Below are positions 19,857 through 35,514 of a stretch of DNA of 47,822 bases, piece after piece. The stretch lies in the IMG/VR virus record IMGVR_UViG_3300022745_000004, positions 1 through 47,822 of that record. One strand, written 5' to 3'. Origin of the DNA: a virus. The position numbers were made by a program, and so were the translations under genes. Positions within the stretch are counted from its first letter, which is position 1. Each line of letters opens with the position of its first letter. Below the pieces are notes generated by a model, which was not told the origin of the DNA, did no database searches, and saw only the letters and a list, made by a program, of their open reading frames with translations.

Positions 19857-20933
19857 ATGGCGCGAAATGAGTGGACAAGCGCAGATCTTGGCATCGCGAT
19901 GGAGCGCGCAGTGCGCGCCAATGCAAAGAAGGTCCGTCAGATAGGCGACTGGATACATTGCAATGGGTTCTGGCGTGAGGGCCGAAAGCAGAATGTATCG
20001 ATCAACGTCGCTCATGGATCATTCAAAGACCACAAGACAGGCAAGTCGGGGGGTGCTGCAGTGTTCGCTCGTGAGGCGTTCGACATGGGGCTGCCTGAGT
20101 TCATGCGGCAGTTCGGTGCAGGTGTCACAGGTGTCGTCCTCCCTGAGCGCCCCCCTGATCCGGGGAGAGAAGACCTCCACATCGTGTGGGAGGACCTCGT
20201 TGCGCGCATGCCGCGCGACCGCGCCGACGCCGCCGCGCGGTGGCTGACGTCGAAGAGGCACTTCCCGCGCGAGGTCGGCCACATCGTCGACAGCGGCTTC
20301 GTCACGCTCAACGCCTCGACGCTGACGTCGTGGCCGATCGACATCCGGCCATGGATCGCCTGGCGGCTGCAGGAGTTCGGCACGACGATGGGCGTGCCGA
20401 TCCGCGACGCCGAGACCGGCCTCGTCTGCAACGTCCACCTGCGACCGATTCTGACGCACGGCGCTGACTCGCGACGCTTCATCCCGGGCTGCTGGGCGTG
20501 GTCTCCGACGAAGGCGCCGCGCGTCTACGGGCTGCCGGCGCGCGCGCTCGACGCGGACCTGCTCGTCGTGGTCGAGGGCGCCGTCGACCAGATGGCGGCC
20601 GAGTTGTGGGTGCGCGACACCCCGGGCGCCTCCGTGATCGGCTGCCTCCATGCGGCCCAGATGGCCGAGCTCGGGCGGTGGCTGCGCCGGCGCGCGCGCG
20701 GGCGCACCGTGATCGTGCCGCACCTCGACAGCAACAAGGAGGAGGCGGGCCCGCGGGCGGCGGCAAAGCTCATGTCCGAGTTGCGCGCTGCCGACATTCC
20801 GGCCACCTTCTTCGACTGGGATCGCTTCATGGGGGTGCTCGGCGTGACAGCGAAGGATCTCGGCGACGTCCTCCATGTTGGCTTCCACAAGGCGGGCTCC
20901 GCGTTCCGCGACGTCGTCGGGGCGGTGGCGTGA
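19857..20933 (+). CDS. Toprim-domain DNA primase with degenerate N-terminal zinc-binding region
   Basis: Toprim signature LLVVVEGAVDQ ... IVPHLDSNKEEAG. The N-terminus HCNGFWREGRKQNVSINVAHGSFKDHKTGKSGG resembles a CHC2 primase finger that has lost its Cys ligands. Confidence 0.7.
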   Translation: MARNEWTSADLGIAMERAVRANAKKVRQIGDWIHCNGFWREGRKQNVSINVAHGSFKDHKTGKSGGAAVFAREAFDMGLPEFMRQFGAGVTGVVLPERPPDPGREDLHIVWEDLVARMPRDRADAAARWLTSKRHFPREVGHIVDSGFVTLNASTLTSWPIDIRPWIAWRLQEFGTTMGVPIRDAETGLVCNVHLRPILTHGADSRRFIPGCWAWSPTKAPRVYGLPARALDADLLVVVEGAVDQMAAELWVRDTPGASVIGCLHAAQMAELGRWLRRRARGRTVIVPHLDSNKEEAGPRAAAKLMSELRAADIPATFFDWDRFMGVLGVTAKDLGDVLHVGFHKAGSAFRDVVGAVA

Positions 20934-22354
20934 GCGACTCCATCAACAAGGCGCTCGAGGCGAAGGTGCTCGAGCTGGCCTCCGTCGAGAAGCCGCCCGC
21001 CCGCGAGAAGACCTTTCAGCGTGGGGATGACGTCGAGATCGCTGCCGACGTCGTCGGCGTCCTGCAAAAGGACGCTCCCTGGGTGCACAGCGCCGAGCAG
21101 TTCTGGTCCTACGAGAACGACAGCGGCGCGTGGGAGCCGCAGCACACCGAGGACATCCGCGCCCTCGTCATGACCTACGCGGGACGCAAGGTCTTCGCCG
21201 GCAAGGACAAGGCGGGCGAGGACATCACGCGGGCGCTGAAGCTCAACAGCGGGCGCGTCGAGGGGACGGTGAGGTGCGCGCAGACCCTCCTTCACCAAGA
21301 GGGCTACTTCGACCAGGCGCCGCCGGGCATCGCGTTCAAGAACAGCTTCGTCAGCATCTCCGACGTCGGGGAGATCATCCAGATCGCCCACGGGCCCGAG
21401 AACCGCGCGCGCTTCTCGCTGCCCTATGCGTACCGCGAGCACGGCTGCCCGCAGTGGCGCGCGTTCCTCCGTGACCTCTTCATCGCCGACGAGGACATCC
21501 TCGAGAAGATCGAGTGCATCCGCGAGTTCGTCGGGCTCTGCCTGCTCGGGCGCATCGTCCCCTTCGAGAAGTCGCTCATCCTCTTCGGCGCCGGCAGCAA
21601 CGGGAAGAGCGTCCTGCTGCAGACCATCCTCGACATCTTCCCCCCGAAGGCGCGCAGCTCCGTGCCACCGCAGATGTGGATGGAGGACTACCACCTGGCA
21701 CGCCTCGACGGGTCCGCCATCAACGTCGTCTCCGAGCTTCCGCAGCGCGAACTGCTCGAGAGCAACAGCCTCAAGCAGGTGATCTCCGGGGACCTCGTGA
21801 CGGCGCGGCGTCCTCGAGAGAACCCCTTCGACTTCCGCCCGCGCGCGGGCCACATCTTCGCGAGCAATCCACCGCTCCCGCAGGTGAACGACTTCTCTCC
21901 GGGCTTCTGGCGACGATGGACGCTCATCGCCTTCAACCGCGCCTTCACTGGCGGCGAGGCCGAGGCGAAGGAGCGGCTGCTCGCGAAGCTCAAGGAGGAG
22001 ATCCCCGGGATCGTCTACTGGGCGATCGAGGGTGCGGGCCGGGCCATCCGACGTGGCTCACTGCAGACCGTGAAGTCGTCGACGGCCGCGCTCGATCGCT
22101 GGCGCAAGGGCAGCGACCAGGTGGCGACGTTCCTCGAGGAGGAGGTCGTCGAGAGCAAGGACGCCGAGTTCAGCGTCGACGACGTGTACCGCGGCTACCG
22201 CTCATGGTGCGCGCGGAGCGGCCACAAGATGATCGGGCGGACGCGCTTCCGCGAGCGCCTCGAGGCCCTCAACGTGAAGGCCTCGCAGGATGCCGCGGGG
22301 AGGTGGTTCGTTCCGGTGAGGGTGAGGCCGCAGGCCTACGGCAGCGACGACTGA
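20930..22354 (+). CDS. D5/P4-family SF3 replicative helicase
   Basis: GTG at 20930 with a GTGA overlap on the primase stop. Walker A LFGAGSNGKSV, then SELPQRE and a C-terminal YRGYRSWCARSGHKMIGRTRF DNA-binding tail typical of P4/D5 primase-helicases. Confidence 0.85.
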   Translation: MSDSINKALEAKVLELASVEKPPAREKTFQRGDDVEIAADVVGVLQKDAPWVHSAEQFWSYENDSGAWEPQHTEDIRALVMTYAGRKVFAGKDKAGEDITRALKLNSGRVEGTVRCAQTLLHQEGYFDQAPPGIAFKNSFVSISDVGEIIQIAHGPENRARFSLPYAYREHGCPQWRAFLRDLFIADEDILEKIECIREFVGLCLLGRIVPFEKSLILFGAGSNGKSVLLQTILDIFPPKARSSVPPQMWMEDYHLARLDGSAINVVSELPQRELLESNSLKQVISGDLVTARRPRENPFDFRPRAGHIFASNPPLPQVNDFSPGFWRRWTLIAFNRAFTGGEAEAKERLLAKLKEEIPGIVYWAIEGAGRAIRRGSLQTVKSSTAALDRWRKGSDQVATFLEEEVVESKDAEFSVDDVYRGYRSWCARSGHKMIGRTRFRERLEALNVKASQDAAGRWFVPVRVRPQAYGSDD

Positions 22355-22403
22355 GGCTGCCGCCTGGCTTGGGTGGTATTCGAATCCACTCGTCACAGAG
22401 GTG

Positions 22404-22423
22404 GTCCGGGTTAGCACCCGGAC
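22404..22423. terminator. Hairpin at the convergent junction (bidirectional terminator candidate)
   Basis: gtccgggt-tagc-acccggac forms an 8-bp perfect stem with a 4-nt loop, in the 154-nt gap between the converging genes ending at 22354 and 22509. No T-run. Confidence 0.45.
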
Positions 22424-22508
22424 TGGTCCACTGTTCCGGTTCCAGACTACGTCCTGCGCGGCCAAGCGCAGGCGCATCACGAGCTCCAGCGGCATCCCGT
22501 GTATAGCG

Positions 22509-23090
22509 TCAGTCGTCTCTCGAGCGCAAGACGGGCCCGCCGAACTCGCCGAGCTCGGCGAACGCGAGTTCTGCGTCATGGCGCTGCTTCCCCAGCAGCA
22601 TCAGGCGCGAACTCTCACGTGGGATCCTCAGGCGCTGCCTGTGCATGAGGATGAAGTCGATGGCCATGAAGGCTGCGTCCGTCTCCGGGATGAACCCATA
22701 GCGCATGGTTCCATCGCCCGCCATGACGAGGTCGCTCCTGACCGCATTTGCGAACCACCGTTCGACATCGCTCATACGGGCCACAGGATGTGGCCTCACG
22801 ACATCGCATACGAGTTTGATCTCCTCTGGCGACACGAGGAAGAGGAAGTCCCAGGTATTGGCGTACGCCTTCTGAGGTGCGTGCTCCTTCTCAAGGAGGT
22901 GACGTTCGACCCTCTTCGCGCCAGTGAACAGGTACTTGTTGAAGGTCTTCTTCTGCTTGCTGTTGTCGAGCACTTCCTGCGACGTCATCCACAGGAGCCT
23001 GCAGACGGAGCACCCGTGCTCCCTGAACACTGGCGCCATGCACGGTTCGCCGTCGGGCTTGATCTCACCGCAGTGCCGCCACTGCATCAC
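22509..23090 (-). CDS. Cassette gene G: unknown protein with N-terminal Cys/His knuckle (193 aa)
   Basis: MMQWRHCGEIKPDGEPCMAPVFREHGCSVCRLLW... The start (GTG 23090 or ATG 23087) overlaps the stop of gene F. Visibly lower G+C and K/F/N/Y-containing composition. No family recognised. Confidence 0.7.
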   Translation of the reverse strand: MMQWRHCGEIKPDGEPCMAPVFREHGCSVCRLLWMTSQEVLDNSKQKKTFNKYLFTGAKRVERHLLEKEHAPQKAYANTWDFLFLVSPEEIKLVCDVVRPHPVARMSDVERWFANAVRSDLVMAGDGTMRYGFIPETDAAFMAIDFILMHRQRLRIPRESSRLMLLGKQRHDAELAFAELGEFGGPVLRSRDD

Positions 23091-23563
23091 ACGTCCACAT
23101 GCTCATCGGGGCCGGACGCGATCTCGACGAGGTCGGCGGCCTCCTTCTGCAGCTTGGCGGCCTCCTCCTTCCATCCGGTGATCTGCACGTCCGTCACCGG
23201 CTGGCCGTCGTCGAGCTGGAGGTAGTCCTTCGCCATGCGCTCGAAGTGGGCCGATGCCGCAGCAAGGGCCTTGATGAACCCGATCACCGGGATCTTGCCG
23301 CCCTTCGTCACGTAGCCGTTCGAGCTCAGGACGTGCAGGACGTCCGTGGAGGCCTGGAGCATGAGGATGTCGTCCTCGCCGACCTCGTCCCCCATCAGAG
23401 CCCGGATGAAGGCGCCAGGCTGCTCGGGCTCCCGTGAGAGCGCGAGCGCGCGCACACGCTCCGAGGCGACGGCAAGCCCGGCCTTGGTGAGGTTGGCGGC
23501 CATGTTGTAGTAGGCCTTGTTCCGCTCGGCGAGCTGGCGCTCGTAGATGTCGCTGTTCTTCAT
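23087..23563 (-). CDS. Cassette gene F: unknown protein (158 aa)
   Basis: ATG at 23563 (MKNSDIYERQLAERNKAYYNMAANL...) has an ATGA overlap with the gene E stop, with GGAAGGGA upstream. An alternative ATG lies at 23578. Confidence 0.7.
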   Translation of the reverse strand: MKNSDIYERQLAERNKAYYNMAANLTKAGLAVASERVRALALSREPEQPGAFIRALMGDEVGEDDILMLQASTDVLHVLSSNGYVTKGGKIPVIGFIKALAAASAHFERMAKDYLQLDDGQPVTDVQITGWKEEAAKLQKEAADLVEIASGPDEHVDV

Positions 23564-23775
23564 CGTGGTCCCTTCCACCCTCTGTTGAGGGGCGTGAGTT
23601 TCTGTCGGCCGACGTATCCCGCGTCCTTTGGGCAGCCGTTTGGGCAGATGAGGAGCGGCTCAAGTTCGACCGAGTTGAGTCGTGAGGTATCTCCGATGTC
23701 GCGCCACTGCCCGCAGTGGTTGCACCGGATGATCATGATCCGTGGTTCCCAACTGCCCCAGTTGCCATCCGTCAC
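23560..23775 (-). CDS. Cassette gene E: 71-aa zinc-ribbon protein
   Basis: GTG at 23775 with a GTGA overlap on the gene D stop. Sequence (M/V)TDGNWGSWEPRIMIIRCNHCGQWRD...LLICPNGCPKD carries CxxC...CxxxC. The listed 160-aa form has a shadow N-terminus. Confidence 0.6.
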   Translation of the reverse strand: MTDGNWGSWEPRIMIIRCNHCGQWRDIGDTSRLNSVELEPLLICPNGCPKDAGYVGRQKLTPLNRGWKGPR

Positions 23776-24119
23776 GGCGCACCTCCATCGACGACCCGAG
23801 GCGCGAAGTTCATCGCATCCGTCTTCTCGACGCCGGGCAGGTTGGCTGCGATCCAGCCGTCCACCATCGTGTGATCGACGACTTGTGAGATCGCTTCGAG
23901 GAACGCGACCTTCCCTCCCGCGATGAGGTCGAACGAAAACGAGATACAGACGGGTCTTCGATCGAGGCTGCCAATCTGGATCCAGAAGCCGCCCGGCAGT
24001 TGCTCCCAGGGAATGCCCCTGGCCTCGTGAAACTCGCGCCATAGCGCGAGATGCTCGTAAGTGGTGGCTGTGACGACCCGCGACACACCCTTTAGGCTCA
24101 TGCCAACGTCGACGCTCAT
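23772..24119 (-). CDS. Cassette gene D: unknown protein (115 aa)
   Basis: ATG at 24119 (MSVDVGMSLKGVSRVVTATTYEHLALWREFHEARGIPWEQ...) has an ATGA overlap with the stop of the PAPS-reductase-like gene. Confidence 0.65.
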   Translation of the reverse strand: MSVDVGMSLKGVSRVVTATTYEHLALWREFHEARGIPWEQLPGGFWIQIGSLDRRPVCISFSFDLIAGGKVAFLEAISQVVDHTMVDGWIAANLPGVEKTDAMNFAPRVVDGGAP

Positions 24120-25075
24120 GGCTTCACCTTCAGCACGCGCTCGATGTCGGCATCCTCTGTCGGAGGTGCCTCGCATAGGCCCCACCGCATACACCCACCG
24201 CGCGGTGGGTCCTGCAGGATCGGGAACTGACGCCCGCCCTTGTCCGTCATCGCCCACGAAACGACATCGCGGATCTTGACGTAGCCGTCGCTGGCGCCGA
24301 CTCCCGCGCGCCCCTGGAAGAACGTCCCCTGTGGGTGCTTGTATCGGTCCTCGTCGTTGCCGGCCGCGCGGTGCTCAGCATTCCGGAGCGCGCGGTCATC
24401 AGTGACCGCGCGCTCCATCCCATCGATCTCGTCGATGCGTTCGGGCGAACGCATGGCGAGTAGTCGGATTTCCTCTTTGCGCGAGAATATGCACGGGTAG
24501 CATCCGACGCGGTCGAATCCCGCGTGATAGAGCGGGTTCATAGGCACGCCGTGGCGACGGTGGATCTCGATGACGTCAGCGACAGTCCAGTCGAGGATCG
24601 GACGCCACACGTAGCCGCCCCACCCGCGCTCGCCCTCCGAATCGCGCGCGGGCTCGTCGTCAAAGACTGCCATCTTCGAACGGGACGCGCTCTCCTCGGC
24701 GCGCACACCCATGGCACACACCGTCTCCCTGCCGGTGCGGTCCTCGTGTTCGTCGTGGTATGCGCGCAAAGGCATGATCTTGAGCTCCTGCGTGCACCAA
24801 CGCTGCATGCGCGCGGGGAACCCTGCACGATGCTTGATACTATCGCGCATGTCGCGTTTCGGTTTCACGACATCGATCGGCCCGATGAGTCTGCGCAGCG
24901 TATCGAGGTGTGCGTATGTCTCGGGTGCCTCCCATCCCGTGTCAGCGAACACCATACGGAATGGCACGTCGGCCTCACGAAGTGATAGCGCTAGCGCGGA
25001 GCTGTCCTTCCCGCCGCTCACGCTTGCGATGACGTCGCAGTCGGCCACTTCTGTGGGGACGATGATGCGCTTCAC
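24116..25075 (-). CDS. Cassette gene C: PP-loop ATP pyrophosphatase of the PAPS-reductase / DndC-like family
   Basis: SVSGGKDSSALAL (SGGKDS PP-loop), MGVRAEESASR (GxRxxES), and four Cys as GCYPC plus C-terminal GGCMRWGLCE. GTG start with a GTGA overlap on the gene B stop. Confidence 0.85.
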   Translation of the reverse strand: MKRIIVPTEVADCDVIASVSGGKDSSALALSLREADVPFRMVFADTGWEAPETYAHLDTLRRLIGPIDVVKPKRDMRDSIKHRAGFPARMQRWCTQELKIMPLRAYHDEHEDRTGRETVCAMGVRAEESASRSKMAVFDDEPARDSEGERGWGGYVWRPILDWTVADVIEIHRRHGVPMNPLYHAGFDRVGCYPCIFSRKEEIRLLAMRSPERIDEIDGMERAVTDDRALRNAEHRAAGNDEDRYKHPQGTFFQGRAGVGASDGYVKIRDVVSWAMTDKGGRQFPILQDPPRGGCMRWGLCEAPPTEDADIERVLKVKP

Positions 25076-25719
25076 TTCCCACCACCCTTCAGCACGCGCT
25101 CGATGTCGCGAATGGCGCTACGCAAGACGGATGCCTCGGCGTCGTTGTTCCCGGCGAGATGGGTCAGCCGACCATGCGTCAACTTGAGCGTCGTGCGCAT
25201 CTCCTCGTGCTCGCGGGCGTAGGCGGCGCCGACGTCGGTGGAGGCAAGGAGTGTACGCACCGTCACCGCATTCGGGCAGTCGCTGCCGTCGACGTCCTCG
25301 AAGACGCACGCATCTTCTTCGAGTTGCTCCCTCATCGCCGCCGCCGCAGCGGTTGCGCGGTCGCGCTCGGCGAGGAGTTCTGCGCACGACTTTGCCACCG
25401 CAAGGGAATCGCTCAACGCTGCATCCCTCTCCGCCGTCACGCGGGCGAGGTCGTCAGCCGCTGCGCGCATCTTCTCGTCAAGGAAAGACGCGGGGTCGTA
25501 GTCGCCCGCGAACGCCCTGTCCTCGACCCACCCGAGCTGAATCGCAAGCGCGTGAAGGCCCTGCGCCCACCCCGGCTTGTAGGTCTCCGTGATCTCCCGA
25601 AGATTGGCGCGAGCGCGGGCGAGGTCGGCGCGGAGCGCAGCGGCCTCGCAGCCGGAGCATATCGGAACTCCGTGTTTGCAGAACTTCGGTGGGATGGTGT
25701 CGTCGGTGGTGGTGGTCAT
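25072..25719 (-). CDS. Cassette gene B: unknown coiled-coil protein with N-terminal Cys cluster (215 aa)
   Basis: ATG at 25719 (MTTTTDDTIPPKFCKHGVPICSGCEAAALRADLARARANLREI...) has an ATGA overlap with the gene A stop. The 29 upstream codons of the listed ORF lie inside gene A. Confidence 0.7.
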   Translation of the reverse strand: MTTTTDDTIPPKFCKHGVPICSGCEAAALRADLARARANLREITETYKPGWAQGLHALAIQLGWVEDRAFAGDYDPASFLDEKMRAAADDLARVTAERDAALSDSLAVAKSCAELLAERDRATAAAAAMREQLEEDACVFEDVDGSDCPNAVTVRTLLASTDVGAAYAREHEEMRTTLKLTHGRLTHLAGNNDAEASVLRSAIRDIERVLKGGGK

Positions 25720-26171
25720 GGGATCATTCCCCTCGCGTTGAGGTACGTCCGTTTGAAGATGAGCGCGCCGGCGAGGCCATCCCCGACGGGCATCAGCTTG
25801 CCCCACACATCGGCGGCGCTCGCGCGAAGCTCTTTGCTGGGCTGAACCATGTATACGACCCCCTGACGAGTGTCGGTCTTATTGTTCACGCGGTGCTGCC
25901 GAAAAGCAACCCCCAATGCCCGCATATTCCGAACGAACGGGATCCCAGTCATCTGGGGGGTCTTTCCCTGGATGACGCACCACGCGCAATACCACGCGTA
26001 CAGCTCTCCGGCCCACGTCCCATCGGCCACAGCATCCACCACTTCGAGGTGCTCAAGGAGGAACTCCTTGGCATGCTCAGGGCTCTCATCGACATGCACC
26101 GGGATGAGGCGCGCCTCGAGCTCGGCGACCTTCTCCTCGAGTGCGGTCAGGCGCAGGGAAAACTCGTCCAT
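25716..26171 (-). CDS. Cassette gene A: coiled-coil plus winged-helix-like protein (151 aa); regulator/repressor candidate
   Basis: MDEFSLRLTALEEKVAELEARL... followed by ELYAWYCAWCVIQGKTPQMTGIPFVRNMRALGV. That segment parallels the C-terminal tail of the SF3 helicase in this window (VYRGYRSWCARSGHKMIGRTRFRERLEALNV). It is the first gene after the control region, with TTGAGGT upstream of the ATG. Confidence 0.7.
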   Translation of the reverse strand: MDEFSLRLTALEEKVAELEARLIPVHVDESPEHAKEFLLEHLEVVDAVADGTWAGELYAWYCAWCVIQGKTPQMTGIPFVRNMRALGVAFRQHRVNNKTDTRQGVVYMVQPSKELRASAADVWGKLMPVGDGLAGALIFKRTYLNARGMIP

Positions 26172-26208
26172 CGTTCATACCTCAAGTAAGGGATCACGGG
26201 GTGGGGGG

Positions 26209-26237
26209 GGTATAGGCTGTACTGCACTGGAAATCAA
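26209..26237 (-). promoter_or_regulatory. Candidate sigma70-type promoter for the antisense cassette
   Basis: On the minus strand: TTGATT (26237-26232), a 17-nt spacer, then TATACC (26214-26209). The predicted start falls in the C8 run about 35 nt upstream of the gene A ATG. The -10 lacks the final T, so this is tentative. Confidence 0.3.
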
Positions 26238-26705
26238 GCCCTCTTTGGAGGTTACCCCCCCCCGGTACCTTGATCTCATACCCCCCCATACTAACTCTAA
26301 TGTTTCTAGATACTTCCATCTACCTAGGGATTATACGGTATGCACCAGTCCGAACGGTTCGGTCACGGTATTTTCTGTGACGCACCGTTTCAGTGATCGA
26401 GTCGGTTTCCTATGCAGCAGCCGCTCCGAAAACGAGCCACTTTTCCGGGTTTGCACAGGGGAGGGAACCCATCCAGGCCGCCGGCGCATCGTTCCATTTG
26501 CCGGGGGGTGCATGCCCTCCGTTGCATGATGCGGCCTTGCTCTTGACGCCGCGTAGAGACCGGCCCTTGTCCGGCCAGTTATGTAGGTGCCTATTGCAAC
26601 AGGGGTGCACGCTCGTCGGCTGCGGCAAAACGCCGCACCACACCCACGTCCCCTCTTGCATCATTCCACGCGTGACATCCGTCATCCATTCTGCAGATCT
26701 CGGGA

Positions 26706-26733
26706 TTGACTCATGACCGGTCTCGGTTACACT
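26706..26733 (+). promoter_or_regulatory. Candidate sigma70-type promoter for the rightward early genes
   Basis: TTGACT (26706-26711), a 16-nt spacer, then TACACT (26728-26733). It sits about 36 nt upstream of the ATG at 26770, which is preceded by GAGGTG. Confidence 0.4.
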
Positions 26734-26769
26734 TGGGATGCGGCGCTTTTGCCGTCAATGAGGTGCAAC

Positions 26770-26979
26770 ATGTCCCGTCGATTCTGCAACCCTGCTATGA
26801 TCGCCCATGCCATGCGGCGTCCGCCTGCGGCGCGCGTCGGTTCGCGTGCGGCGGAATCTCTCATCGATCGCATCGAAGCTCGCGAGGCCATCGATGCGAT
26901 CGTGGATGCCCTCGACTATGTGGATCTGGAGGATATGTCTAGCCCGGCGGCATGGGCGTTTGATGGCGAGGTGCTCTAA
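26770..26979 (+). CDS. Small acidic early protein (69 aa)
   Basis: ATG at 26770 with GAGGTG upstream: MSRRFCNPAMIAHAMRRPPAARVGSRAAESLIDRIEAREAIDAIVDALDYVDLEDM... The listed start at 26713 would overlap the predicted promoter. Confidence 0.5.
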   Translation: MSRRFCNPAMIAHAMRRPPAARVGSRAAESLIDRIEAREAIDAIVDALDYVDLEDMSSPAAWAFDGEVL

Positions 26980-27079
26980 TGCGTGCCCCTGATTCTATCA
27001 CGATCAACGCGCGGCGATGGTTCGATGGGTGCGGCAAGGGAGGCGTTGCAGCTCGGCTGCACCATGGGAAGGTGGACGC

Positions 27080-27799
27080 ATGAAACCGTGGCAACCTATC
27101 ACCGCACCGTTGATCCTGTGGGAAGGTCCCTCGGAGATTGATGGCGCTCCCATCGTCGTGATCGCAACAGTCGACAGCGACAACCGTAAGACCGGTGACA
27201 TGATCCAAACGTGGATCATGCGTCGGGATGTCGCGCCGCACGTTGCAGTGCGGACTGGGGAGGATGTCTCGATCTGCGGTGATTGCCCACATCGTCGCCA
27301 GCCTAACGGCACCCGAACGTGCTATGTGACAGTCCACAATGCGCCGCGTTCGGTGTGGGCGAAATATCGTCGAGGGGGCTATAAGCGCGCGACCGGTTGG
27401 CAGCTTGCCGCGATGCAGAGCATGAAGGTGCGCGCCGGGTCGTATGGCGATCCGGGAGCTGTCCCAGGGCACGTGTGGGCCCGCATCCTCGGGAGAAGGC
27501 ACACCGGATACACTCACCAATGGCGACGTAGGCCGGACCTCATGGGGCTTGTCATGGCATCCGTTGACAGCCTCGAGGAGCACCACGACGCCACGCGCGC
27601 AGGCTGGCGCACGTTTCGGGTGACACCTCACGACGTGCTCAATCTTGAGGCGCGCGAGATTGAGTGTCTTGCGGAATCTCGCGGTCTCACGTGTGCGACG
27701 TGCAACGCATGCCATGGTGCGCGTAATGAGGCACCCTCGATCGCTATCCGCGCACATGGTGCTGCCAAGCGTTCGGTGGGCCTACCGATCATCCAGTAG
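27080..27799 (+). CDS. Conserved-looking Cys/His-rich early protein, unknown function (239 aa)
   Basis: ATG at 27080 after GGAAGGTGG. Motif-like blocks: TGDMIQTWI, ICGDCPHR...TRTCYV, GSYGDPGAVP, TGYTHQW, MASVDS, LTCATCNACHG. Confidence 0.7.
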   Translation: MKPWQPITAPLILWEGPSEIDGAPIVVIATVDSDNRKTGDMIQTWIMRRDVAPHVAVRTGEDVSICGDCPHRRQPNGTRTCYVTVHNAPRSVWAKYRRGGYKRATGWQLAAMQSMKVRAGSYGDPGAVPGHVWARILGRRHTGYTHQWRRRPDLMGLVMASVDSLEEHHDATRAGWRTFRVTPHDVLNLEAREIECLAESRGLTCATCNACHGARNEAPSIAIRAHGAAKRSVGLPIIQ

Positions 27800-27816
27800 C
27801 GGTTAGATGCTCGCCT

Positions 27817-27842
27817 GTAGCAGCGTGCCGCCATGCTGCTAC
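27817..27842 (+). terminator. Intergenic hairpin after 27799
   Basis: gtagcagc / gctgctac forms an 8-bp stem with a 10-nt loop, 18 nt after the TAG stop. No T-run. Confidence 0.35.
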
Positions 27843-27874
27843 CAGCGCGCACCCAAGCGCGATCGGAGGATAGA

Positions 27875-28384
27875 ATGGCACCTAAGAAGGCACCTGGCGA
27901 ACTTGCGCGCGGTCTCTTGCGCAAGGCTGGAGATATCACAACCGAACGTGGCGTCATTGCCGCAATGCAGGCCAACCATGACGAGAAAGCGCGCGCGAAA
28001 CGTGCCGATGCTGCAGAGCGGATCGGCGTGGTCATCATTGCCCGGTTCAAAGCTGAAGCCGCGTTGCAAGGCCTGCGGCAAAAGGCGCGCGATGCGCTGC
28101 CGTCTGAGGTGTGGTCATACGAGGATCAGATCACGCGGGCACGGGAGACGTGCGACTATCTGCAGCTCCAGATCGGGCGCGCGATCGACGGCACGCGTTA
28201 CCGCGCGGCCCTTGATCTGGGCGATGCTCCATGGAACCGCATCGCGGCATACGTGCTGCGGGACGTCGTCGAGGCCTACACCGGCCAACCGGCGGGCGTC
28301 GGGATGACGGTCCCGGGGTGGGAGTTGCGCGCGGCGGACCTCATCCGCGAGATCGAAAGTGCTCCGGGTATGGGCGTGCGATGA
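27875..28384 (+). CDS. Hypothetical early protein (169 aa)
   Basis: ATG at 27875 with GGAGGA 5 nt upstream: MAPKKAPGELARGLLRKAGDITTERGVIAAMQ... Confidence 0.65.
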   Translation: MAPKKAPGELARGLLRKAGDITTERGVIAAMQANHDEKARAKRADAAERIGVVIIARFKAEAALQGLRQKARDALPSEVWSYEDQITRARETCDYLQLQIGRAIDGTRYRAALDLGDAPWNRIAAYVLRDVVEAYTGQPAGVGMTVPGWELRAADLIREIESAPGMGVR

Positions 28385-28584
28385 CGATCACAGACCCGAG
28401 TCAAGAGGCACCGTGTGACGCGTGCGGTCGTATGATCCACGTAGGTCAAACCGTGCGGGTTTCTGTTGACAGCAGTGGCATCCATTGGCACTGTGCCGCG
28501 TGTGGGGCACGGGAGAGCAATGGAACGGGACATCAGCAGGTGCGAGACGTGCGATCGCGCGTGTACGGCAGCCGAGTGCGGTGA
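28381..28584 (+). CDS. Small zinc-ribbon protein (67 aa)
   Basis: ATGA overlap with the upstream stop. CDACGRMIH...HCAACG (CxxC...CxxC). Its tail overlaps the next ORF by 65 nt, so the end is uncertain. Confidence 0.4.
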   Translation: MTITDPSQEAPCDACGRMIHVGQTVRVSVDSSGIHWHCAACGARESNGTGHQQVRDVRSRVYGSRVR

Positions 28585-28816
28585 CTGCGCGCGCGATAGG
28601 AAGGCCAGGCCCGGGGTCTGCCACAACTGTGGCCTGACCTGCGGGCCTGGTCGCGTTTGTGCCTCCTGTGCCCTTGAGCTCGCACGGGAGAGCGCGGAGG
28701 AGGCCGCCGTCGAAGCCGGGATCCGCGAGTACCTGGCGGGCACGGGCGTGCACCCGGCCCCTGTGAGCTCGTGGCGGCCACGCCGGACCACGCGCGCGTT
28801 CTGGGAGGGCACGTGA
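28520..28816 (+). CDS. Cys-rich zinc-finger protein (98 aa)
   Basis: MERDISRCETCDRACTAAECGDCARDRKARPGVCHNCGLTCGPGRVCASCALE... with G/C-rich third codon positions. Confidence 0.6.
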   Translation: MERDISRCETCDRACTAAECGDCARDRKARPGVCHNCGLTCGPGRVCASCALELARESAEEAAVEAGIREYLAGTGVHPAPVSSWRPRRTTRAFWEGT

Positions 28817-29208
28817 AAGCCAACCCCCACCTCGACTTCGTGCTGTGCTCCATCCCCACCACCACGTTCGGGGGGCTTGAGCCGTACACCGCGCCCACCG
28901 CCGCACGGGCACCCGAGGACGCTGTCATGGCGTCGCAGGTGCCGGACCCTGAGCCCATCCGCGGGCGCGTCGCCGAGGCCCACCGCTACGTGGGCGAGGA
29001 GACCCTGGCGCTTGTCGCCGGCGAGCTGTGGGCCGCGGACTACCGCACGAGCATCAGTATCACGCGCGGCCTGCGGGCGAACGGGCACCAGATCACGCAC
29101 CGGCACGTCAACGCCGCGCTCGAGCGCCTGCGCGCCACGGGCAAGGCCACGCGCATCGTCAACAAAGACCGCCACCGCAACACGCGATGGCTCTGGAGGA
29201 AGAAGTGA
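28813..29208 (+). CDS. Hypothetical protein with winged-helix-like C-terminus (131 aa)
   Basis: GTG at 28813 with a GTGA overlap. ...ISITRGLRANGHQITHRHVNAALERLRATGKATRIV resembles a wHTH recognition region. The fold call is weak. Confidence 0.5.
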   Translation: MKANPHLDFVLCSIPTTTFGGLEPYTAPTAARAPEDAVMASQVPDPEPIRGRVAEAHRYVGEETLALVAGELWAADYRTSISITRGLRANGHQITHRHVNAALERLRATGKATRIVNKDRHRNTRWLWRKK

Positions 29209-29636
29209 GCGACCTGAGGGACATGGTGAGCCTGGCGACCCTGATGGAGGGCGGCATCGTCGAGCAGTTCGACGAGGCGCTGCGCCTAGCGGCCGAGAAC
29301 TGCCTCGACCCGAACACGGAGGCCACGGCCACGCGCACGGTGAGCCTCACCGTGAAGCTCAAGCCGAACGTGAACCGCGAGGTGGTGGACCTCGACTGCC
29401 AGGTGGTGGCGAAGCCCGCGCCGGACAAGCCCGTGTCGACGACGCTGTTCCTCGGCAAGACGAAGCAGAACCAGGCCGTCCTCGCCGAGAAGAACGCACG
29501 GCAGAACGACCTCTTCAACCGCAGCCCGCAGGAGATCGCGGCGGGCCTGCAGGAGGAGATGCGTCGCAAGGGGCACAACGTCGTCGTGCTCCCCGTGGTC
29601 GACATCGTCACCGAGGAGAACGCCGGGCACGGTTGA
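29187..29636 (+). CDS. Hypothetical early protein (149 aa; alternative GTG start at 29205)
   Basis: MALEEEVSDLRDMVSLATLMEGGIVEQFDEALRLAAENCLDPN... The GTG at 29205 would give a GTGA overlap with the upstream stop. Confidence 0.6.
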   Translation: MALEEEVSDLRDMVSLATLMEGGIVEQFDEALRLAAENCLDPNTEATATRTVSLTVKLKPNVNREVVDLDCQVVAKPAPDKPVSTTLFLGKTKQNQAVLAEKNARQNDLFNRSPQEIAAGLQEEMRRKGHNVVVLPVVDIVTEENAGHG

Positions 29637-29641
29637 AGCCC

Positions 29642-29663
29642 GCTCACGGCACGCGCCGTGAGC
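29642..29663 (+). terminator. Hairpin 6 nt after the stop at 29636
   Basis: gctcacggc-acgc-gccgtgagc forms a 9-bp perfect stem with a 4-nt loop. No T-run. Its 3' arm overlaps the 17-bp inverted repeat described below. Confidence 0.45.
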
Positions 29664-29733
29664 ATGCACCGAGGTGCCGAGCACCCGTCCCCCCGAGGTC
29701 CCCACCAACGCACGGGCCTCGGTGCATGCTCAC
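29658..29733 (+). promoter_or_regulatory. 17-bp perfect inverted repeat with a 42-nt spacer (large stem-loop / protein-binding palindrome)
   Basis: gtgagcatgcaccgagg (29658-29674) is the exact reverse complement of cctcggtgcatgctcac (29717-29733). It lies in the 125-nt gap before the gene at 29762. Confidence 0.7.
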
Positions 29734-29761
29734 CGCGCAGTGACGCGCGATGGAGGCCACG

Positions 29762-30526
29762 ATGATCAAAGAAGCCATCGAAACGATCCAGAAGCTCGCC
29801 GACAAGGGCCGCGCCCCGCCCGACATCAAGGTACTGGACGGCCGCACGCGCCAGTCCGTGGGTGGCGACGAGTACCTGCCGATCCCGACGACGCACGACG
29901 ACCCCCTGCAGGTGTCGACGCTGTCGGCGATCATCGACTACCTGGCGGACAACCGCGACGCGCTGACCCTCGAGGACGTGAGCGTGATCGTCACCCCGGG
30001 CTCGGTGTTCGCTGTGACGCCTCCCGAGAAGGACGGCCACCGCACGGTCCGCATCTCGGCAGCCCCCGCGCTCGGCGACGTCGTGCAGCCGCACCTCGGC
30101 AAGTTCCTCGATCAGGAGAGCCTGATCGTGTGGCTGCAGACCGCGTTCCTGCCGTCGCCGGATCGCGCCGACCTGCTCAAGATGGTGTCGAGCCTGCAGG
30201 CCGAGTCGGTGCGCGCCGTCGGCGACAGCGGCATCGCACAAGAGGTCGTCGTCAAGACGGGCTCGGTGCGTGTGGGCAGCGAGGTTATCAAGAGCCCGGT
30301 GATGCTCATCCCGCGCCGCACGTTCGGCGAGATCACCCTCGAGCCCGAGGCCTTCATCGTGCGTGCGAAGGCGCAGGGCGCCGGCGGGCTGCCCGGCGTG
30401 GCGCTGTTCGCGGCCGGCGGCGACGCCTGGAAGCTCGACGCCGTGGCGAAGATCGCCAGCTACCTCAAGAAGAACGCGCGCCCCGAGCAGGGCTCCGAGT
30501 TGGTGCAGTGGGGGGTGCTCGCGTGA
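29762..30526 (+). CDS. Hypothetical early protein (254 aa)
   Basis: ATG at 29762 preceded by GGAGG (ATGGAGGCCACGATG); the upstream ATG at 29750 is the alternative. MIKEAIETIQKLADKGRAPPDIKVLDGRTRQSVGG... Confidence 0.7.
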   Translation: MIKEAIETIQKLADKGRAPPDIKVLDGRTRQSVGGDEYLPIPTTHDDPLQVSTLSAIIDYLADNRDALTLEDVSVIVTPGSVFAVTPPEKDGHRTVRISAAPALGDVVQPHLGKFLDQESLIVWLQTAFLPSPDRADLLKMVSSLQAESVRAVGDSGIAQEVVVKTGSVRVGSEVIKSPVMLIPRRTFGEITLEPEAFIVRAKAQGAGGLPGVALFAAGGDAWKLDAVAKIASYLKKNARPEQGSELVQWGVLA

Positions 30527-31086
30527 CCGACAAGCCGAAGCACCCGCCGCTCGACGAGCCAGCGCGAGTGGAGCATGGCCAGGCCGCTGAGCGTTCATGG
30601 AGCGCGCTTGCCTCTCCGATCGCACCGTGGGAGCGGGCACCGACGAACCACCGCGGGCTCCTCGAGCGCGACATCGTTGCGCCGCTGCTCCTCAACGTGG
30701 AGAGCGGCCACCTGCTCGAGGCGGCGGCCCGGCGCCTCGCCGACGGCGCACACACGATCGAGGCGCTCCGTCGCGACGTTGCCTCGATGCGCGAGCACGC
30801 GGCGAACATGGAGCGGATGGCGCAGAACGAGCACGAGGCCGCGAGCAAGGCCGGGTTCGAACTGGACAAGATCCACACGCTCATCGACGGCCTTGTCGAG
30901 ACGGCAGACCTCGAGCCGGTCGCCCTCGTCGTCGCCCGCATCGTCAACAGGTTCAAGGAGATGAGCGCACTGCTCACAAAGAAGGAGCTCAAGATGAAGA
31001 AGATCAAGGTGCGGCGGGGTGACCCGCGCGCGGCGAAGCCCATGCCGAAGGTCAAGGCCGGGGCACCGAAGAAGAAGCGGAAGTAG
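30523..31086 (+). CDS. Hypothetical protein with Lys-rich C-terminal tail (187 aa)
   Basis: GTG at 30523 with a GTGA overlap. It ends ...KKELKMKKIKVRRGDPRAAKPMPKVKAGAPKKKRK. Confidence 0.6.
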   Translation: MTDKPKHPPLDEPARVEHGQAAERSWSALASPIAPWERAPTNHRGLLERDIVAPLLLNVESGHLLEAAARRLADGAHTIEALRRDVASMREHAANMERMAQNEHEAASKAGFELDKIHTLIDGLVETADLEPVALVVARIVNRFKEMSALLTKKELKMKKIKVRRGDPRAAKPMPKVKAGAPKKKRK

Positions 31087-31090
31087 GACC

Positions 31091-31109
31091 GCGCAGCTCG
31101 GCGCTGCGC
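31091..31109 (+). terminator. Hairpin 5 nt after the stop at 31086
   Basis: gcgcagc-tcggc-gctgcgc forms a 7-bp stem with a 5-nt loop. Confidence 0.4.
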
Positions 31110-31197
31110 CGACGCCGTGAGCATCAACCAACGCGCATCGACGAGACCCTGCGCGCGCTCACGACGTCGGCATCGCGCCGAAGCGATGGAGGAAACG

Positions 31198-31392
31198 ATG
31201 GAACCGATCATGCAGTTCTTCAAGTACGAGCACCTGAAGCCCGAGCTTCAGGAAGTGAGCAAGCCGTTCTGCCTGCTCGCCGAGCAGATCGTGAAGACGC
31301 TCCCGCGCAACGCGGAGCGCACGGTCGCCCTGCGGAAGCTGCTCGAGTGCAAGGACGCCGCCGTGCGCGCCTACATCGCGGAGATCGCGTGA
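31198..31392 (+). CDS. Small conserved-looking phage protein (64 aa)
   Basis: ATG at 31198 preceded by GGAGG (ATGGAGGAAACGATG). MEPIMQFFKYEHLKPELQEVSKPFCLLAEQIVKTLPRNAERTVALRKLLECKDAAVRAYI. The pattern looks familiar from other phage genomes, but I cannot name the family. Confidence 0.65.
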   Translation: MEPIMQFFKYEHLKPELQEVSKPFCLLAEQIVKTLPRNAERTVALRKLLECKDAAVRAYIAEIA

Positions 31393-31751
31393 GGGATCTC
31401 ATCCAGAAGAACCGCCGGCACCCGAGCCTGCGCGTCGTGCCGCAGGCGATCGAGAACGGCGTGGCCCCCGCGCTGTCGGGCTTCCCTGTGTTCGCCGTTG
31501 GCGACCGCATCATCGAGACCGTGGGCATGACGGCGTCCGATGTGGGCGACGTGATCGGCGACGGCGTCGAGCTGGCCTACGCCTCGGCGCAGTCCCTGCG
31601 GATGCTGAGCCTGCTCGAGGCACTCGTCGACTTCCTGGAGGAGGCTGGTCTGCAGTCGCTGGCCCACGACATCGGCGCGAAGAGCGGCGTGGCCCTCGAT
31701 GAGGCTGTCGCGAAGGCCCGCGACGTCATCAAGCAGGCGACCCCGCCGTGA
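31389..31751 (+). CDS. Hypothetical protein (120 aa)
   Basis: GTG at 31389 with a GTGA overlap on the upstream stop. Confidence 0.55.
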   Translation: MRDLIQKNRRHPSLRVVPQAIENGVAPALSGFPVFAVGDRIIETVGMTASDVGDVIGDGVELAYASAQSLRMLSLLEALVDFLEEAGLQSLAHDIGAKSGVALDEAVAKARDVIKQATPP

Positions 31752-32761: not shown

Positions 32762-33255
32762 AGATCAGCGAGAAGGACATGAAGGACTGGCGCACCGGGC
32801 TTCACGCAGCGAACCCGGAGCAGGCGAAGGATCTCGTCGACATGCTGGACAAGGCGCGTCGGCAGCTCGAGCGCCTCTTCGGGGCCCTCGATGACGCCGA
32901 CCCGGTGTGCGAGTGCGGCCCCAGCGGCGTGATGGTGCTCCTCGAGACGACGCGTGACACACTGAGCCAGGTGACTCCCCGTGGCTTCGTGGTCCTCGGC
33001 GAGAACGTCTCGCTGCTGTGGCCCGTCCTCGCGTTCGCGTCCATGCTCCTCGTGGGGCTCGCCACGGTGCAGGAGGAGCGCGAGGCCGGGCGCGCGATGA
33101 AGCAGTGCCGCTCCGACCTCGTTGATGCCGCCAACCTCGCCGAGCACGCTCTCGACGCGCAGGCGCAGTGCGCGGGCGTGCTGATGAGTTGCGTCGAGGT
33201 CGTCGCCCAGTCGCAGGCCTGCACATGCTGGATCGATTCAGGGAGCGCCGAATGA
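32758..33255 (+). CDS. Hypothetical protein with one predicted transmembrane segment (165 aa)
   Basis: ATG at 32758 with an ATGA overlap. Hydrophobic stretch VSLLWPVLAFASMLLVGLATV. Confidence 0.6.
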   Translation: MKISEKDMKDWRTGLHAANPEQAKDLVDMLDKARRQLERLFGALDDADPVCECGPSGVMVLLETTRDTLSQVTPRGFVVLGENVSLLWPVLAFASMLLVGLATVQEEREAGRAMKQCRSDLVDAANLAEHALDAQAQCAGVLMSCVEVVAQSQACTCWIDSGSAE

Positions 33256-35329: not shown

Positions 35330-35514
35330 GCGTGCCGTCATCGAGCCAGGTGGTGTTCGTCGTTGAGATCCGGCGCGGTGGCGACCAGTGGCACCGCGTC
35401 GCCATCTGCGCCACCCACGCCAGCGCGTGCGATCGTGCCAGTTGGTTTCTGGCGCTGTATGGGCTCCCGAACGACGGGAAGTGGCATAGCATCGACCCGG
35501 TGGTGCTCGAGTGA
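35326..35514 (+). CDS. Hypothetical small protein (62 aa)
   Basis: GTG at 35326 with a GTGA overlap. Confidence 0.5.
   Translation: MSVPSSSQVVFVVEIRRGGDQWHRVAICATHASACDRASWFLALYGLPNDGKWHSIDPVVLE

What the first reader, a model, noticed from the sequence alone, without database searches (positions are those of the whole stretch)
22509..26171. Seven-gene, translationally coupled antisense cassette around a PP-loop PAPS-reductase/DndC-like enzyme: candidate new DNA-modification or prophage defence/anti-defence module
Seven consecutive minus-strand ORFs (A 151, B 215, C 319, D 115, E 71, F 158, G 193 aa) sit inside the otherwise plus-strand early arm.
- Every junction is a 4-nt ATGA or GTGA start/stop overlap (25716-19, 25072-75, 24116-19, 23772-75, 23560-63, 23087-90). 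This implies one operon with coupled translation.
- G+C and codon choice are visibly different from the flanking phage genes.
- Only C is recognisable: SGGKDS PP-loop, GVRAEES, and CYPC plus C-x5-C.
- Known contexts for this enzyme family are Dnd phosphorothioation, BREX type 4, and ParB-like/IbrAB-type pairs. I see none of their partner proteins here. Instead there are two Zn-knuckle proteins, a coiled-coil protein and three orphans.
- The cassette abuts the large control region and runs antisense to the lytic early genes. That is the position of cI-rexAB in lambda, so it may be expressed from the prophage.
Basis: partly seen in the sequence, partly recalled or inferred. Interest (0 to 1): 0.85.

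Follow-up and report, generated by a model that had tools for sequence, protein, structure and literature searches.

The report
Mosaic phage accessory operon, PAPS-reductase-like gene
The seven tightly packed genes are a real operon of a temperate phage, but they are a patchwork of swappable accessory genes around an already known type of phage "PAPS-reductase-like" enzyme, not a new seven-gene DNA-modification or defence system.

Summary
Seven minus-strand ORFs (22509-26171) carry coding-type GC3. Six have Shine-Dalgarno sequences and all six junctions are 4-nt ATGA/GTGA overlaps. The interpretation as one new functional module fails its own co-occurrence test.

- The four closest C homologues (55-61% id) have none of A, B, D, E, F or G within 10 kb. 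One sits in the classic MT-A70 methylase / ParB trio.
- Nine D-family loci have no PAPS reductase nearby.
- G returned only itself among 5.8 billion proteins. A did too, but has one homologue, found later in a fetched contig.
- A true sister phage (helicases and terminase 59-69% id) has the same operon layout. It shares only F and carries a DUF5131 enzyme in C's slot.
- A third contig keeps A and F but has no enzyme there.

So A and F are backbone and C, D, E and G are exchangeable cargo. Backbone gene F has normal G+C, while A, C, D, E and G are G+C-poor.

C is a full-length member of the widespread phage family phrog_424 (coliphage 186 orf84, phiE125 gp57). In phage 186 this gene also lies in a chain of 4-nt-overlapping non-essential early genes. 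A phage PAPS domain has been shown to counter Dnd. Verdict: new member of a known kind, low interest.

The parts
25716..26171 (-). Gene A (151 aa): first gene of the leftward operon. N-terminal coiled coil plus a C-terminal domain faintly like the C-terminal DNA-binding end of D5-type helicases. Conserved 'backbone' gene.
   Evidence: ORF, GAGG Shine-Dalgarno, GC3 0.78. It returned only itself in the 5.8e9-protein search. A homologue (29% id, E 1e-15) is the first gene of the equivalent operon in L031. The coiled coil matches designed coiled coils. Resemblance to the D5 C-terminus is weak: PHROG primase hits at E 0.025-0.03, BLASTP E 0.077, hhalign probability 14%.
25072..25719 (-). Gene B (215 aa): N-terminal C/H-rich knuckle (CKHGVPICSGC) followed by a long alanine-rich coiled coil. 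No relatives found.
   Evidence: Searches give no family. There is no IMG/VR relative. L031 has a non-homologous coiled-coil protein with a CxxC motif in a similar position.
24116..25075 (-). Gene C (319 aa): phage-type PAPS-reductase-like PP-loop ATPase. Carries SGGKDS and conserved cysteines C94, C191, C194, C289 and C295.
   Evidence: PF01507 at 2.7e-30, 106 bits against a cut-off of 22.5. phrog_424 at 3.2e-55. PADLOC SspD 2.3e-28, BrxP 5.2e-23, DndC 8e-11. It scores below every NCBIfam cut-off for CysH, APS reductase and DndC. It matches 107 phage records, including 186 orf84 and phiE125 gp57. Cysteines are conserved in the alignment.
23772..24119 (-). Gene D (115 aa): member of a widespread small phage protein family of unknown function (phrog_18096). 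Independent of C elsewhere.
   Evidence: phrog_18096 at 1.5e-26. It occurs in 22 phage records, mostly large lytic phages, in runs of small hypothetical genes. Nine D-family loci lack any C homologue. The AF2 model has pLDDT 66 with an alpha-beta4-alpha-alpha layout. It has no significant PDB match, and the BFVD matches are uncharacterised proteins of the same family.
23560..23775 (-). Gene E (71 aa): probable small zinc-ribbon protein (CxxC...CxxxC). Not called in the public gene calls.
   Evidence: GGAGG site upstream, GC3 0.72. Only weak zinc-ribbon Pfam hits at E 0.05-0.1 and phrog_20049 at E 0.029. No IMG/VR relative. Omitted by the gene callers.
23087..23563 (-). Gene F (158 aa): all-helical protein of unknown fold. 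It is the conserved 'backbone' gene of this operon in related phages and has genome-typical composition.
   Evidence: An exhaustive phmmer search of 1.84e9 representatives found 4 relatives at 29-50% id. Their contexts are L025, L026, L031 and L032. GC3 is 0.925. The AF2 model has pLDDT 85.7 with six helices, and the best PDB match is E 0.81.
22509..23090 (-). Gene G (193 aa): last gene, orphan with an N-terminal Cys cluster. Alternative ATG start at 23087 gives a 1-nt overlap.
   Evidence: It returned only itself among 5.8e9 proteins. No Pfam, PHROG, PADLOC, NCBIfam or PDB hit. The sister phage has an unrelated 167-aa gene in this position.
26172..26769 (.). Divergent intergenic region of about 600 bp with low G+C (~0.59). 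It lies between gene A (leftward) and the rightward early operon. Presumed promoter and control region; contains G8/C8 inverted repeats at 26186-26287.
   Evidence: Only one sigma-70-like match, no more than expected by chance. No Rfam or tRNA hit.
22355..22508 (.). Convergent 154-nt gap between gene G and the D5-type helicase gene, with strong GC-rich hairpins. Presumed bidirectional terminator.
   Evidence: Folding gives -81.3 kcal/mol, z = -4.0 against 200 shuffles. There is no T-tract, so the simple terminator scan did not report it.

Best explanation
The region is the leftward accessory operon of a roughly 47.8-kb temperate, podovirus-like phage genome recovered from metagenomes. It is transcribed from the divergent control region (26172-26769) and ends at the hairpins facing the D5-helicase gene.

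It is a mosaic, not a dedicated pathway. A (coiled-coil protein, possibly DNA-binding) and F (helical protein) are lineage-conserved backbone genes. C, D, E, G and probably B are individually exchangeable cargo.

The one recognisable cargo gene, C, is a stand-alone member of the phage PAPS-reductase-like family (phrog_424; coliphage 186 orf84, phiE125 gp57).

Inferred mechanism for C:
- It is an ATP-using PP-loop enzyme.
- It has a cysteine set typical of the Fe-S members of the superfamily and a conserved C-terminal ...GLCE tail.
- It acts alone, or with host sulfur-mobilising proteins, on DNA or on a nucleotide/sulfur intermediate during early infection.
- Its role is to blunt modification-dependent host defence of the Dnd/Ssp/BREX-4 (phosphorothioate) kind.

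What is shown: the gene order, the tight coupling, the family membership of C and D, and the mosaic turnover. What is inferred: the timing of expression, the chemistry of C, and any role of A, B, D, E, F and G.
For: Operon anatomy.

Phage context:
- Terminase, portal, SU10-type adaptor, tyrosine integrase, exonuclease and two DNA methyltransferases.
- The same contig was assembled twice, 47,836 and 47,725 bp, with different ends.

Mosaic turnover:
- C homologues at 55-61% id in four IMG/VR contigs have no A, B, D, E, F or G within +-10 kb. In L008 the neighbours are an MT-A70 methylase and a ParB_N protein.
- The D family occurs in 22 phages and 9 fetched loci without C.
- G returned only itself in the big protein search. 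So did A, whose one homologue was found later in L031.
- Sister phage L026 (D5 helicase 69%, ResIII helicase 66%, TerL 59% id) has the same convergent operon but shares only F. It has a DUF5131 enzyme where C sits.
- L031 keeps an A homologue and an F homologue with other genes between them and no PAPS reductase.

Composition agrees. F has genome-typical GC3 of 0.925, whereas A, C, D, E and G are G+C-poor.

Precedent:
- 186 orf84 is annotated 'not essential'. It lies in the early lytic operon in a chain of five 4-nt overlaps that includes a zinc-finger gene.
- Similar early-region contexts occur in phiE125, S1 and Parlo.

Function precedent:
- A phage PAPS domain fused to Dam conferred escape from Dnd in engineered Vibrio phages (preprint 10.1101/2021.05.05.442762).
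- PAPS reductases recur in Aca-regulated candidate anti-defence operons (PMC13551039).
Against: - Only one full sister genome and three short contigs could be found, so the backbone/cargo split rests on few genomes.
- The searches for A, B and E relatives were of limited sensitivity (word-indexed search or 8-mer pattern scans). Remote homologues or structural analogues in other cassettes cannot be excluded.
- The sister cassette has a similar gene count and a ~320-aa enzyme in third position. That could mean functional analogy of the whole cassette rather than random cargo.
- The anti-Dnd precedent concerns a PAPS-Dam fusion plus a second gene, not a stand-alone enzyme, and its mechanism is unknown.
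- No expression or biochemical data exist for this phage, and its host is unknown.
Confidence: 0.65

Rival explanations
1. One reading: the seven genes are one new, co-adapted DNA-modification or defence/anti-defence system. C is the catalytic core and the zinc-knuckle, coiled-coil and orphan proteins are its dedicated partners.
For: All six junctions are 4-nt overlaps, denser than the genome average of 14/43. The genes share one operon. None of the usual partners is adjacent. The sister phage also has seven genes with a ~320-aa enzyme in third position.
Against: No co-occurrence was found wherever it could be tested. The closest C homologues lack the other six. The D family is independent of C in nine loci. 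G returned only itself in the large search, and A's single homologue lies in a contig without C. The sister phage shares only F. Composition separates F from A, C, D, E and G. Phage 186 shows the same tight packing around a non-essential orf84 among functionally unrelated genes.
Confidence: 0.07
2. Lysogeny-side operon. A is the immunity repressor or another regulator transcribed leftward from the switch region. B-G are morons co-expressed in the prophage, as in lambda cI-rexAB, and protect the lysogen (superinfection exclusion or defence).
For: The phage has a tyrosine integrase. No other repressor candidate was recognised among the early genes. A is the first gene next to a 600-bp divergent intergenic region. 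It is conserved in that position in L031. It has a dimerising coiled coil and a faint likeness to a DNA-binding domain.
Against: A has no significant HTH or repressor family hit. The D5-C-terminus likeness is inconclusive (hhalign probability 14%). In 186, phiE125 and Parlo the homologous PAPS-reductase-like gene lies in the lytic early operon, downstream of Cro/Apl/CII-type genes. No operator-like repeats stood out.
Confidence: 0.2
3. C is an auxiliary metabolic gene: a true assimilatory PAPS/APS reductase (CysH) that boosts host sulfur assimilation during infection. The neighbours are unrelated.
For: The Pfam PAPS_reduct domain is present. The best PDB sequence matches are APS/PAPS reductases (E 5e-5 to 9e-3). 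Database annotations of homologues say 'phosphoadenosine phosphosulfate reductase'.
Against: Scores are far below the NCBIfam cut-offs for CysH and APS reductase (42-61 bits against 154-254). The ECGLH catalytic motif is absent from the sequence. A family-specific C-terminal domain ending in GLCE is conserved instead. SspD/BrxP profiles score better than DndC profiles, and the phage family phrog_424 scores best of all. The usual neighbours are DNA methylases and ParB, not sulfur-metabolism genes.
Confidence: 0.03

Closest known systems
Coliphage 186 orf84 (CP84) and the CP80-CP84 stretch of the early lytic operon; P2-like phages generally
   Same: orf84 is a homologue over 90% of C's length (29.7% id, E 4e-29), including the C-terminal domain. 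It sits in a chain of small genes joined by 4-nt overlaps, one of them a zinc-finger protein. It is translationally coupled to the next gene and annotated non-essential.
   Different: In 186 the chain runs into the replication gene A and lies on the lytic side of a well-mapped switch. Here the operon is separate from the replication genes, converges on the D5 helicase gene, and its timing is unknown. None of the accompanying small genes is homologous.
phiE125 gp56-gp57-gp58 type trio (DNA methyltransferase / PAPS-reductase-like / ParB-like); same trio in IMG/VR contig L008
   Same: Same enzyme family: phiE125 gp57 at 32% id, the L008 homologue at 55% id. Early-region location in temperate phages.
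   Different: No ParB-like gene was detected in the window. The two methyltransferase genes (31884-32660, 33530-34084) lie 6-9 kb away in the other operon.
Vibrio podovirus PAPS-Dam fusion that counters Dnd (Piel et al. 2022; preprint 10.1101/2021.05.05.442762)
   Same: A phage-borne PAPS-reductase domain in a variable region, with an experimentally supported counter-defence phenotype.
   Different: That protein is a fusion with a Dam methylase, and it was transferred together with a second gene. Its sequence relationship to C was not tested here. C is stand-alone.
DndC / SspD / BrxP sulfurtransferases of phosphorothioation systems
   Same: PP-loop domain and conserved cysteines. PADLOC profiles hit C: SspD 2.3e-28, BrxP 5.2e-23, DndC 8e-11.
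   Different: C is below the DndC equivalog cut-off (36 bits against 290). It covers only the PP-loop part of BrxP (profile positions 135-334 of 779). No DndA/D/E, SspB/C or PglZ/BrxC partner hit the other six cassette proteins or appeared in the Pfam and PHROG annotation obtained for the rest of the window.

Membership tests
PAPS-reductase / PP-loop ATP pyrophosphatase superfamily (Pfam PF01507) | Domain score above Pfam's gathering threshold | tested here: met
   106.1 bits against a cut-off of 22.5; residues 16-196 cover profile positions 3-173 of 175.
PAPS-reductase / PP-loop ATP pyrophosphatase superfamily (Pfam PF01507) | PP-loop nucleotide-binding motif SGGxDS | tested here: met
   SGGKDS at residues 20-25, invariant in five homologues.
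Phage PAPS-reductase-like family (phrog_424; 186 orf84, phiE125 gp57) | Strong profile match plus near full-length alignment to phage members, including the C-terminal Cys-containing tail | tested here: met
   phrog_424 at E 3.2e-55. tblastn covers 90% of C in 37 phage records. The RWCT, GCYPC and G(L/A)CE cysteines are conserved.
Assimilatory PAPS/APS reductase (CysH) | Score above the NCBIfam equivalog/subfamily cut-offs | tested here: not met
   PRK02090 61.5 bits against 154; TIGR00434 42 against 165; TIGR02055 46 against 235; TIGR02057 31 against 254.
Assimilatory PAPS/APS reductase (CysH) | C-terminal ECGLH catalytic cysteine motif (from established knowledge of CysH) | tested here: not met
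   No ECGLH in the sequence. The alignment to APS reductase 2goy ends at GCYPC, and the tail is ...GGCMRWGLCE instead.
DndC (Dnd phosphorothioation) | Equivalog score, and linked dndA/D/E genes | tested here: not met
   TIGR03183 36 bits against 290, and only residues 85-170 match. No PADLOC hit for the other six cassette proteins. No Dnd-like family in the Pfam and PHROG annotation obtained for the rest of the window.
SspD (Ssp phosphorothioation) | SspD-like protein encoded with SspB and SspC (and SspA) | tested here: not met
   The SspD profile matches C (2.3e-28, profile positions 3-205 of 277), but no SspA/B/C hit in the cassette.
BrxP (BREX type 4) | Long multidomain BrxP (PAPS reductase plus extra domains/DUF4007) with PglZ and BrxC | tested here: not met
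   C covers only profile positions 135-334 of 779. No PglZ or BrxC family was found in the window. The architecture is taken from PMC12839542.
IbrA/IbrB-type or methylase-PAPS reductase-ParB trio | Adjacent ParB-like (ParB_N) partner gene | tested here: not met
   B and D, which flank C, have no ParB_N hit. The trio is present around homologues in phiE125 and L008.
Conserved multigene module (any defence, anti-defence or modification system) | Component genes recur together in independent genomes | tested here: not met
   0 of 4 close C loci, 0 of 9 D loci and 0 of 4 F loci carry a second non-backbone cassette gene. Only A and F recur together, once.
Prophage-expressed immunity operon (lambda cI-rexAB type) | First gene is the immunity repressor, and the operon is transcribed in the lysogen | not testable with these tools
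   A has no significant repressor or HTH hit. No expression data exist.

The most novel reading that the evidence does not exclude
The operon is a 'hot-swap' counter-defence island. A lineage-conserved frame holds a slot in which unrelated cofactor-dependent enzymes are exchanged between sister phages. The frame is A, a possible autoregulator comparable in role to Aca proteins, and F. The exchanged enzymes are a PAPS-reductase-like PP-loop/Fe-S protein here and a DUF5131 radical-SAM-superfamily protein in L026/L025. Each enzyme may arrive with its own small zinc-binding helpers. If so, DUF5131 and the phage PAPS-reductase-like enzymes would be functional alternatives, for example different ways of marking phage DNA or disarming modification-dependent restriction.
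Probability: 0.2. Interest if true: 0.5.

Novelty: new member of a known kind. Interest (0 to 1): 0.2.

Why it matters
The finding adds one more divergent, stand-alone member to the large and still biochemically unexplained family of phage PAPS-reductase-like proteins. It also gives a clean natural example of cargo turnover at one locus between sister phages: a PAPS-reductase-like gene in one, DUF5131 in the other. That pairing is a modest lead for anyone studying what these two orphan phage enzyme families do. It does not open a new class of system. The tightly overlapped arrangement, the enzyme family and its probable counter-defence role are all precedented.

Tried and rejected
- Megablast of the cassette against 50,697 phage records: no match.
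- Pfam, PHROG, PADLOC and NCBIfam on all seven proteins: only C and D are assigned.
- GTDB genome scan with C: only two distant actinobacterial partial matches, not followed up.
- Word-indexed search of 5.8e9 proteins. G and A returned only themselves. D returned three relatives.
- IMG/VR pattern scans with A, B, E and F: nothing.
- D5 helicase as anchor to collect sister phages. The single sequence found nothing in IMG/VR or JGI metagenomes. The two-sequence profile found nothing in metagenomes and only a distant (36% id) relative in IMG/VR, with no cassette homologues.
- Structure route. F gave a confident model but no PDB fold match. D gave a moderate model, no PDB match, and only uncharacterised family members in BFVD.
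- A as a winged-helix or D5 C-terminal-like DNA binder: consistent across three weak signals but inconclusive. Not used as evidence.
- B against the L031 coiled-coil protein: not homologous.
- Promoter scan of the control region: one match, no more than expected by chance. The repeat scan showed no convincing operators. No Rfam or tRNA hits.
- One literature search (IbrA/IbrB) returned only unrelated retinal-barrier papers.
- A tblastx of L031/L032 against the window produced only high-GC noise and was ignored.

Full report
**1. What is in the sequence**

The window is a high-G+C (about 68%) phage genome.
- A: 25716-26171
- B: 25072-25719
- C: 24116-25075
- D: 23772-24119
- E: 23560-23775
- F: 23087-23563
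- G: 22509-23090

All six junctions read ATGA or GTGA. Each ORF has the composition of a real gene in a G+C-rich genome: GC3 of 0.72-0.92 and about 0.4-0.5 at codon position 2. Six of the seven starts have a purine-rich ribosome-binding site.

Two caveats apply. The public gene calls on this contig omit E. They also start G at the next codon, an ATG with a 1-nt overlap.

4-nt overlaps are the commonest junction type in this genome, at 14 of 43 other same-strand junctions. The cassette is therefore an unusually dense run of an ordinary feature.

**2. Genome context**

The exact C protein is encoded on two public assemblies: ENA ERZ27252001 (47,836 bp) and Logan SRR7613741 (47,725 bp). The two have different ends, which suggests a complete, circularly permuted genome.

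The gene map, from GC3 analysis, precomputed Pfam hits and my Pfam/PHROG scans:
- A minus-strand operon runs from 19778 down to 1 and wraps to 47822-39062. It holds a ResIII helicase, large terminase (15143-17233), portal (12537-14693), an SU10-type adaptor and large tail or internal proteins.
- Plus-strand primase (19857-20933) and D5-type helicase (20930-22354) follow.
- Then comes the minus-strand cassette.
- A roughly 600-bp, G+C-poor intergenic region lies at 26172-26769.
- A long plus-strand early operon (26770-39150) holds two DNA methyltransferases (31884-32660, 33530-34084), an exonuclease (36030-37298) and a tyrosine integrase (37797-38750).

The cassette is thus a leftward operon, divergent from the main early operon and convergent with the helicase gene. 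The 154-nt convergent gap folds into strong hairpins (z = -4.0).

**3. The proteins**

- **C.** This is a PAPS-reductase-superfamily PP-loop protein.
  - Family scores are PF01507 at 106 bits, phrog_424 at E 3e-55, and PADLOC SspD, then BrxP, then DndC.
  - It falls far below the curated cut-offs for CysH, APS reductase and DndC, and it lacks the ECGLH motif.
  - Alignment with homologues shows invariant SGGKDS, RWC, GCxPC and a C-terminal G(L/A)CE cysteine tail.
- **D.** It belongs to phrog_18096, a small phage protein family of unknown function.
- **A, B, E, F, G.** None has a significant family hit in Pfam, PHROGs, PADLOC, NCBIfam or PDB sequences.
- **F.** The model is confident (pLDDT 85.7) as a six-helix protein with no PDB fold match.
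- **D model.** It is moderate (pLDDT 66), with no PDB match and only uncharacterised relatives in BFVD.
- **A.** It has an N-terminal coiled coil. Its resemblance to the C-terminal end of D5-type helicases is repeated but weak, and I treat it as inconclusive.

**4. The decisive test: do the genes travel together?**

- The four closest C homologues in IMG/VR (55-61% id) have no detectable homologue of A, B, D, E, F or G within 10 kb. In L008 the neighbours are an MT-A70 methylase and a ParB_N protein, the same trio as in Burkholderia phage phiE125.
- D-family genes occur in 22 phage records, mostly large lytic phages, in strings of small hypothetical genes. None of nine fetched D loci contains a C homologue.
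- G and A each returned only themselves from 5.8 billion proteins.
- An exhaustive HMMER search with F found four relatives, and their contexts are the most informative.
  - L026 is a true sister phage: D5 helicase 69%, ResIII helicase 66%, terminase 59%, neighbouring 156-aa protein 62% identical.
  - L026 has the same operon converging on the helicase gene. Its genes are 203 aa, 119 aa, a DUF5131 enzyme (320 aa), 195 aa, 91 aa, the F homologue and 167 aa.
  - Only F is shared with the window. The short contig L025 repeats DUF5131 ... F.
  - L031 begins with an A homologue (E 1e-15) and has an F homologue five genes later. The genes between them are different and there is no PAPS reductase.

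The operon therefore has a conserved frame (A, F) and exchangeable cargo. Composition agrees: F has genome-typical GC3 (0.925), while A, C, D, E and G are G+C-poor by 1.3-2.7 sd.

**5. Comparison with what is known**

The C family is widespread in phages and archaeal viruses, with 107 records in the phage collection.

The clearest precedent is coliphage 186. Its orf84 aligns over 90% of C. It lies in the early lytic operon inside a chain of five 4-nt-overlapping genes that includes a DksA-like zinc-finger protein. It is annotated as non-essential and translationally coupled to the next gene. Parlo, S1 and phiE125 show similar early-region contexts, often with methylases.

On function, a Vibrio podovirus PAPS domain fused to Dam allowed escape from a host Dnd system when moved into a sensitive phage (preprint 10.1101/2021.05.05.442762). 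A 2026 survey notes PAPS reductases in Aca-regulated candidate anti-defence operons (PMC13551039).

The enzyme, its stand-alone occurrence, its tight packing among small early genes and its likely counter-defence role are all precedented.

**6. Most likely mechanism**

The operon is an accessory operon whose cargo genes act independently.

For C, the following is inferred, not shown. It is an ATP-dependent PP-loop enzyme with an Fe-S-type cysteine set and a mobile C-terminal cysteine. It acts on DNA or on a sulfur/nucleotide intermediate, and so protects the phage from phosphorothioate-linked or similar modification-dependent defences.

Whether the operon is lytic-early or prophage-expressed cannot be decided. 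A as a regulator is a reasonable but untested idea.

**7. Verdict**

The operon reading is supported. The 'new seven-gene module' reading is not.

This is a new member of a known kind. The only mildly interesting residue is the enzyme swap between PAPS-reductase-like and DUF5131 at one locus in sister phages.

Noticed in passing
window 27017-27799 (+) versus 26939-27757 (-): The public gene calls on this contig take the minus-strand ORF (272 aa). The plus-strand ORF (260 aa) matches phrog_2554 at E 6.8e-74 (unknown function; faint Pfam DUF7227 hit), and the minus ORF matches nothing. The public call is probably on the wrong strand. GC3 cannot discriminate here (0.64 against 0.66).
   Followed up: partly
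window 26172-28384: The G+C trough (0.59-0.62) extends from the cassette's upstream intergenic region through the first three plus-strand genes, which have the lowest GC3 in the genome (0.66-0.72). The whole switch-proximal region on both sides looks compositionally foreign, not just the cassette.
   Followed up: partly
window 26186-26287: G8/C8 runs form imperfect inverted repeats (GGGGGGGGTA ... TACCCCCCCC ... ATACCCCCCC) just upstream of gene A, inside a 600-bp non-coding stretch. Their function is unknown; operator, origin or attachment site are all possible. No Rfam or tRNA hit.
   Followed up: no
L026 1015-1977 and L025 91-1041: In the sister phage and a related fragment, a DUF5131 (PF07505, Gp37/Gp68; listed with the radical-SAM superfamily in PMC9477430) enzyme of ~320 aa occupies the position that the PAPS-reductase-like gene has in the window. 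The only paper found for DUF5131 (one full-text search, PMC9477430) merely lists it with the radical-SAM superfamily.
   Followed up: partly
L026 48-659 and 656-1015: The first two genes of the sister cassette are paralogous in their C-terminal ~60 residues (37% id, E 2e-9). This indicates a local duplication within the variable operon.
   Followed up: partly
window 1-1850 and 46942-47822: An 835-aa structural gene runs across the window ends. Two independent assemblies of the contig (47,836 and 47,725 bp) are permuted differently. The window is therefore probably a complete circularly permuted or terminally redundant phage genome.
   Followed up: partly
window 31884-32660 and 33530-34084: There are two DNA methyltransferase genes (phrog_1008, and phrog_111 / Pfam Dam) in the rightward early operon. 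The phage invests in DNA methylation separately from the PAPS-reductase-like gene, unlike phiE125 and L008, where a methylase, the PAPS-reductase-like gene and ParB are adjacent.
   Followed up: no
window 37240-37800: The publicly called 186-aa gene overlaps the preceding exonuclease gene by 59 nt, the only long overlap in the genome. Its start codon is probably mis-assigned.
   Followed up: no
L006 10783-11256; L008 11693-12556: Downstream of the closest C homologues lie other candidate nucleotide- or DNA-modifying genes, read by eye only. One is a 157-aa protein that looks like a nucleoside 2-deoxyribosyltransferase. The other is a 287-aa protein after ParB that might be a glycosyltransferase. 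Not tested with profiles.
   Followed up: no
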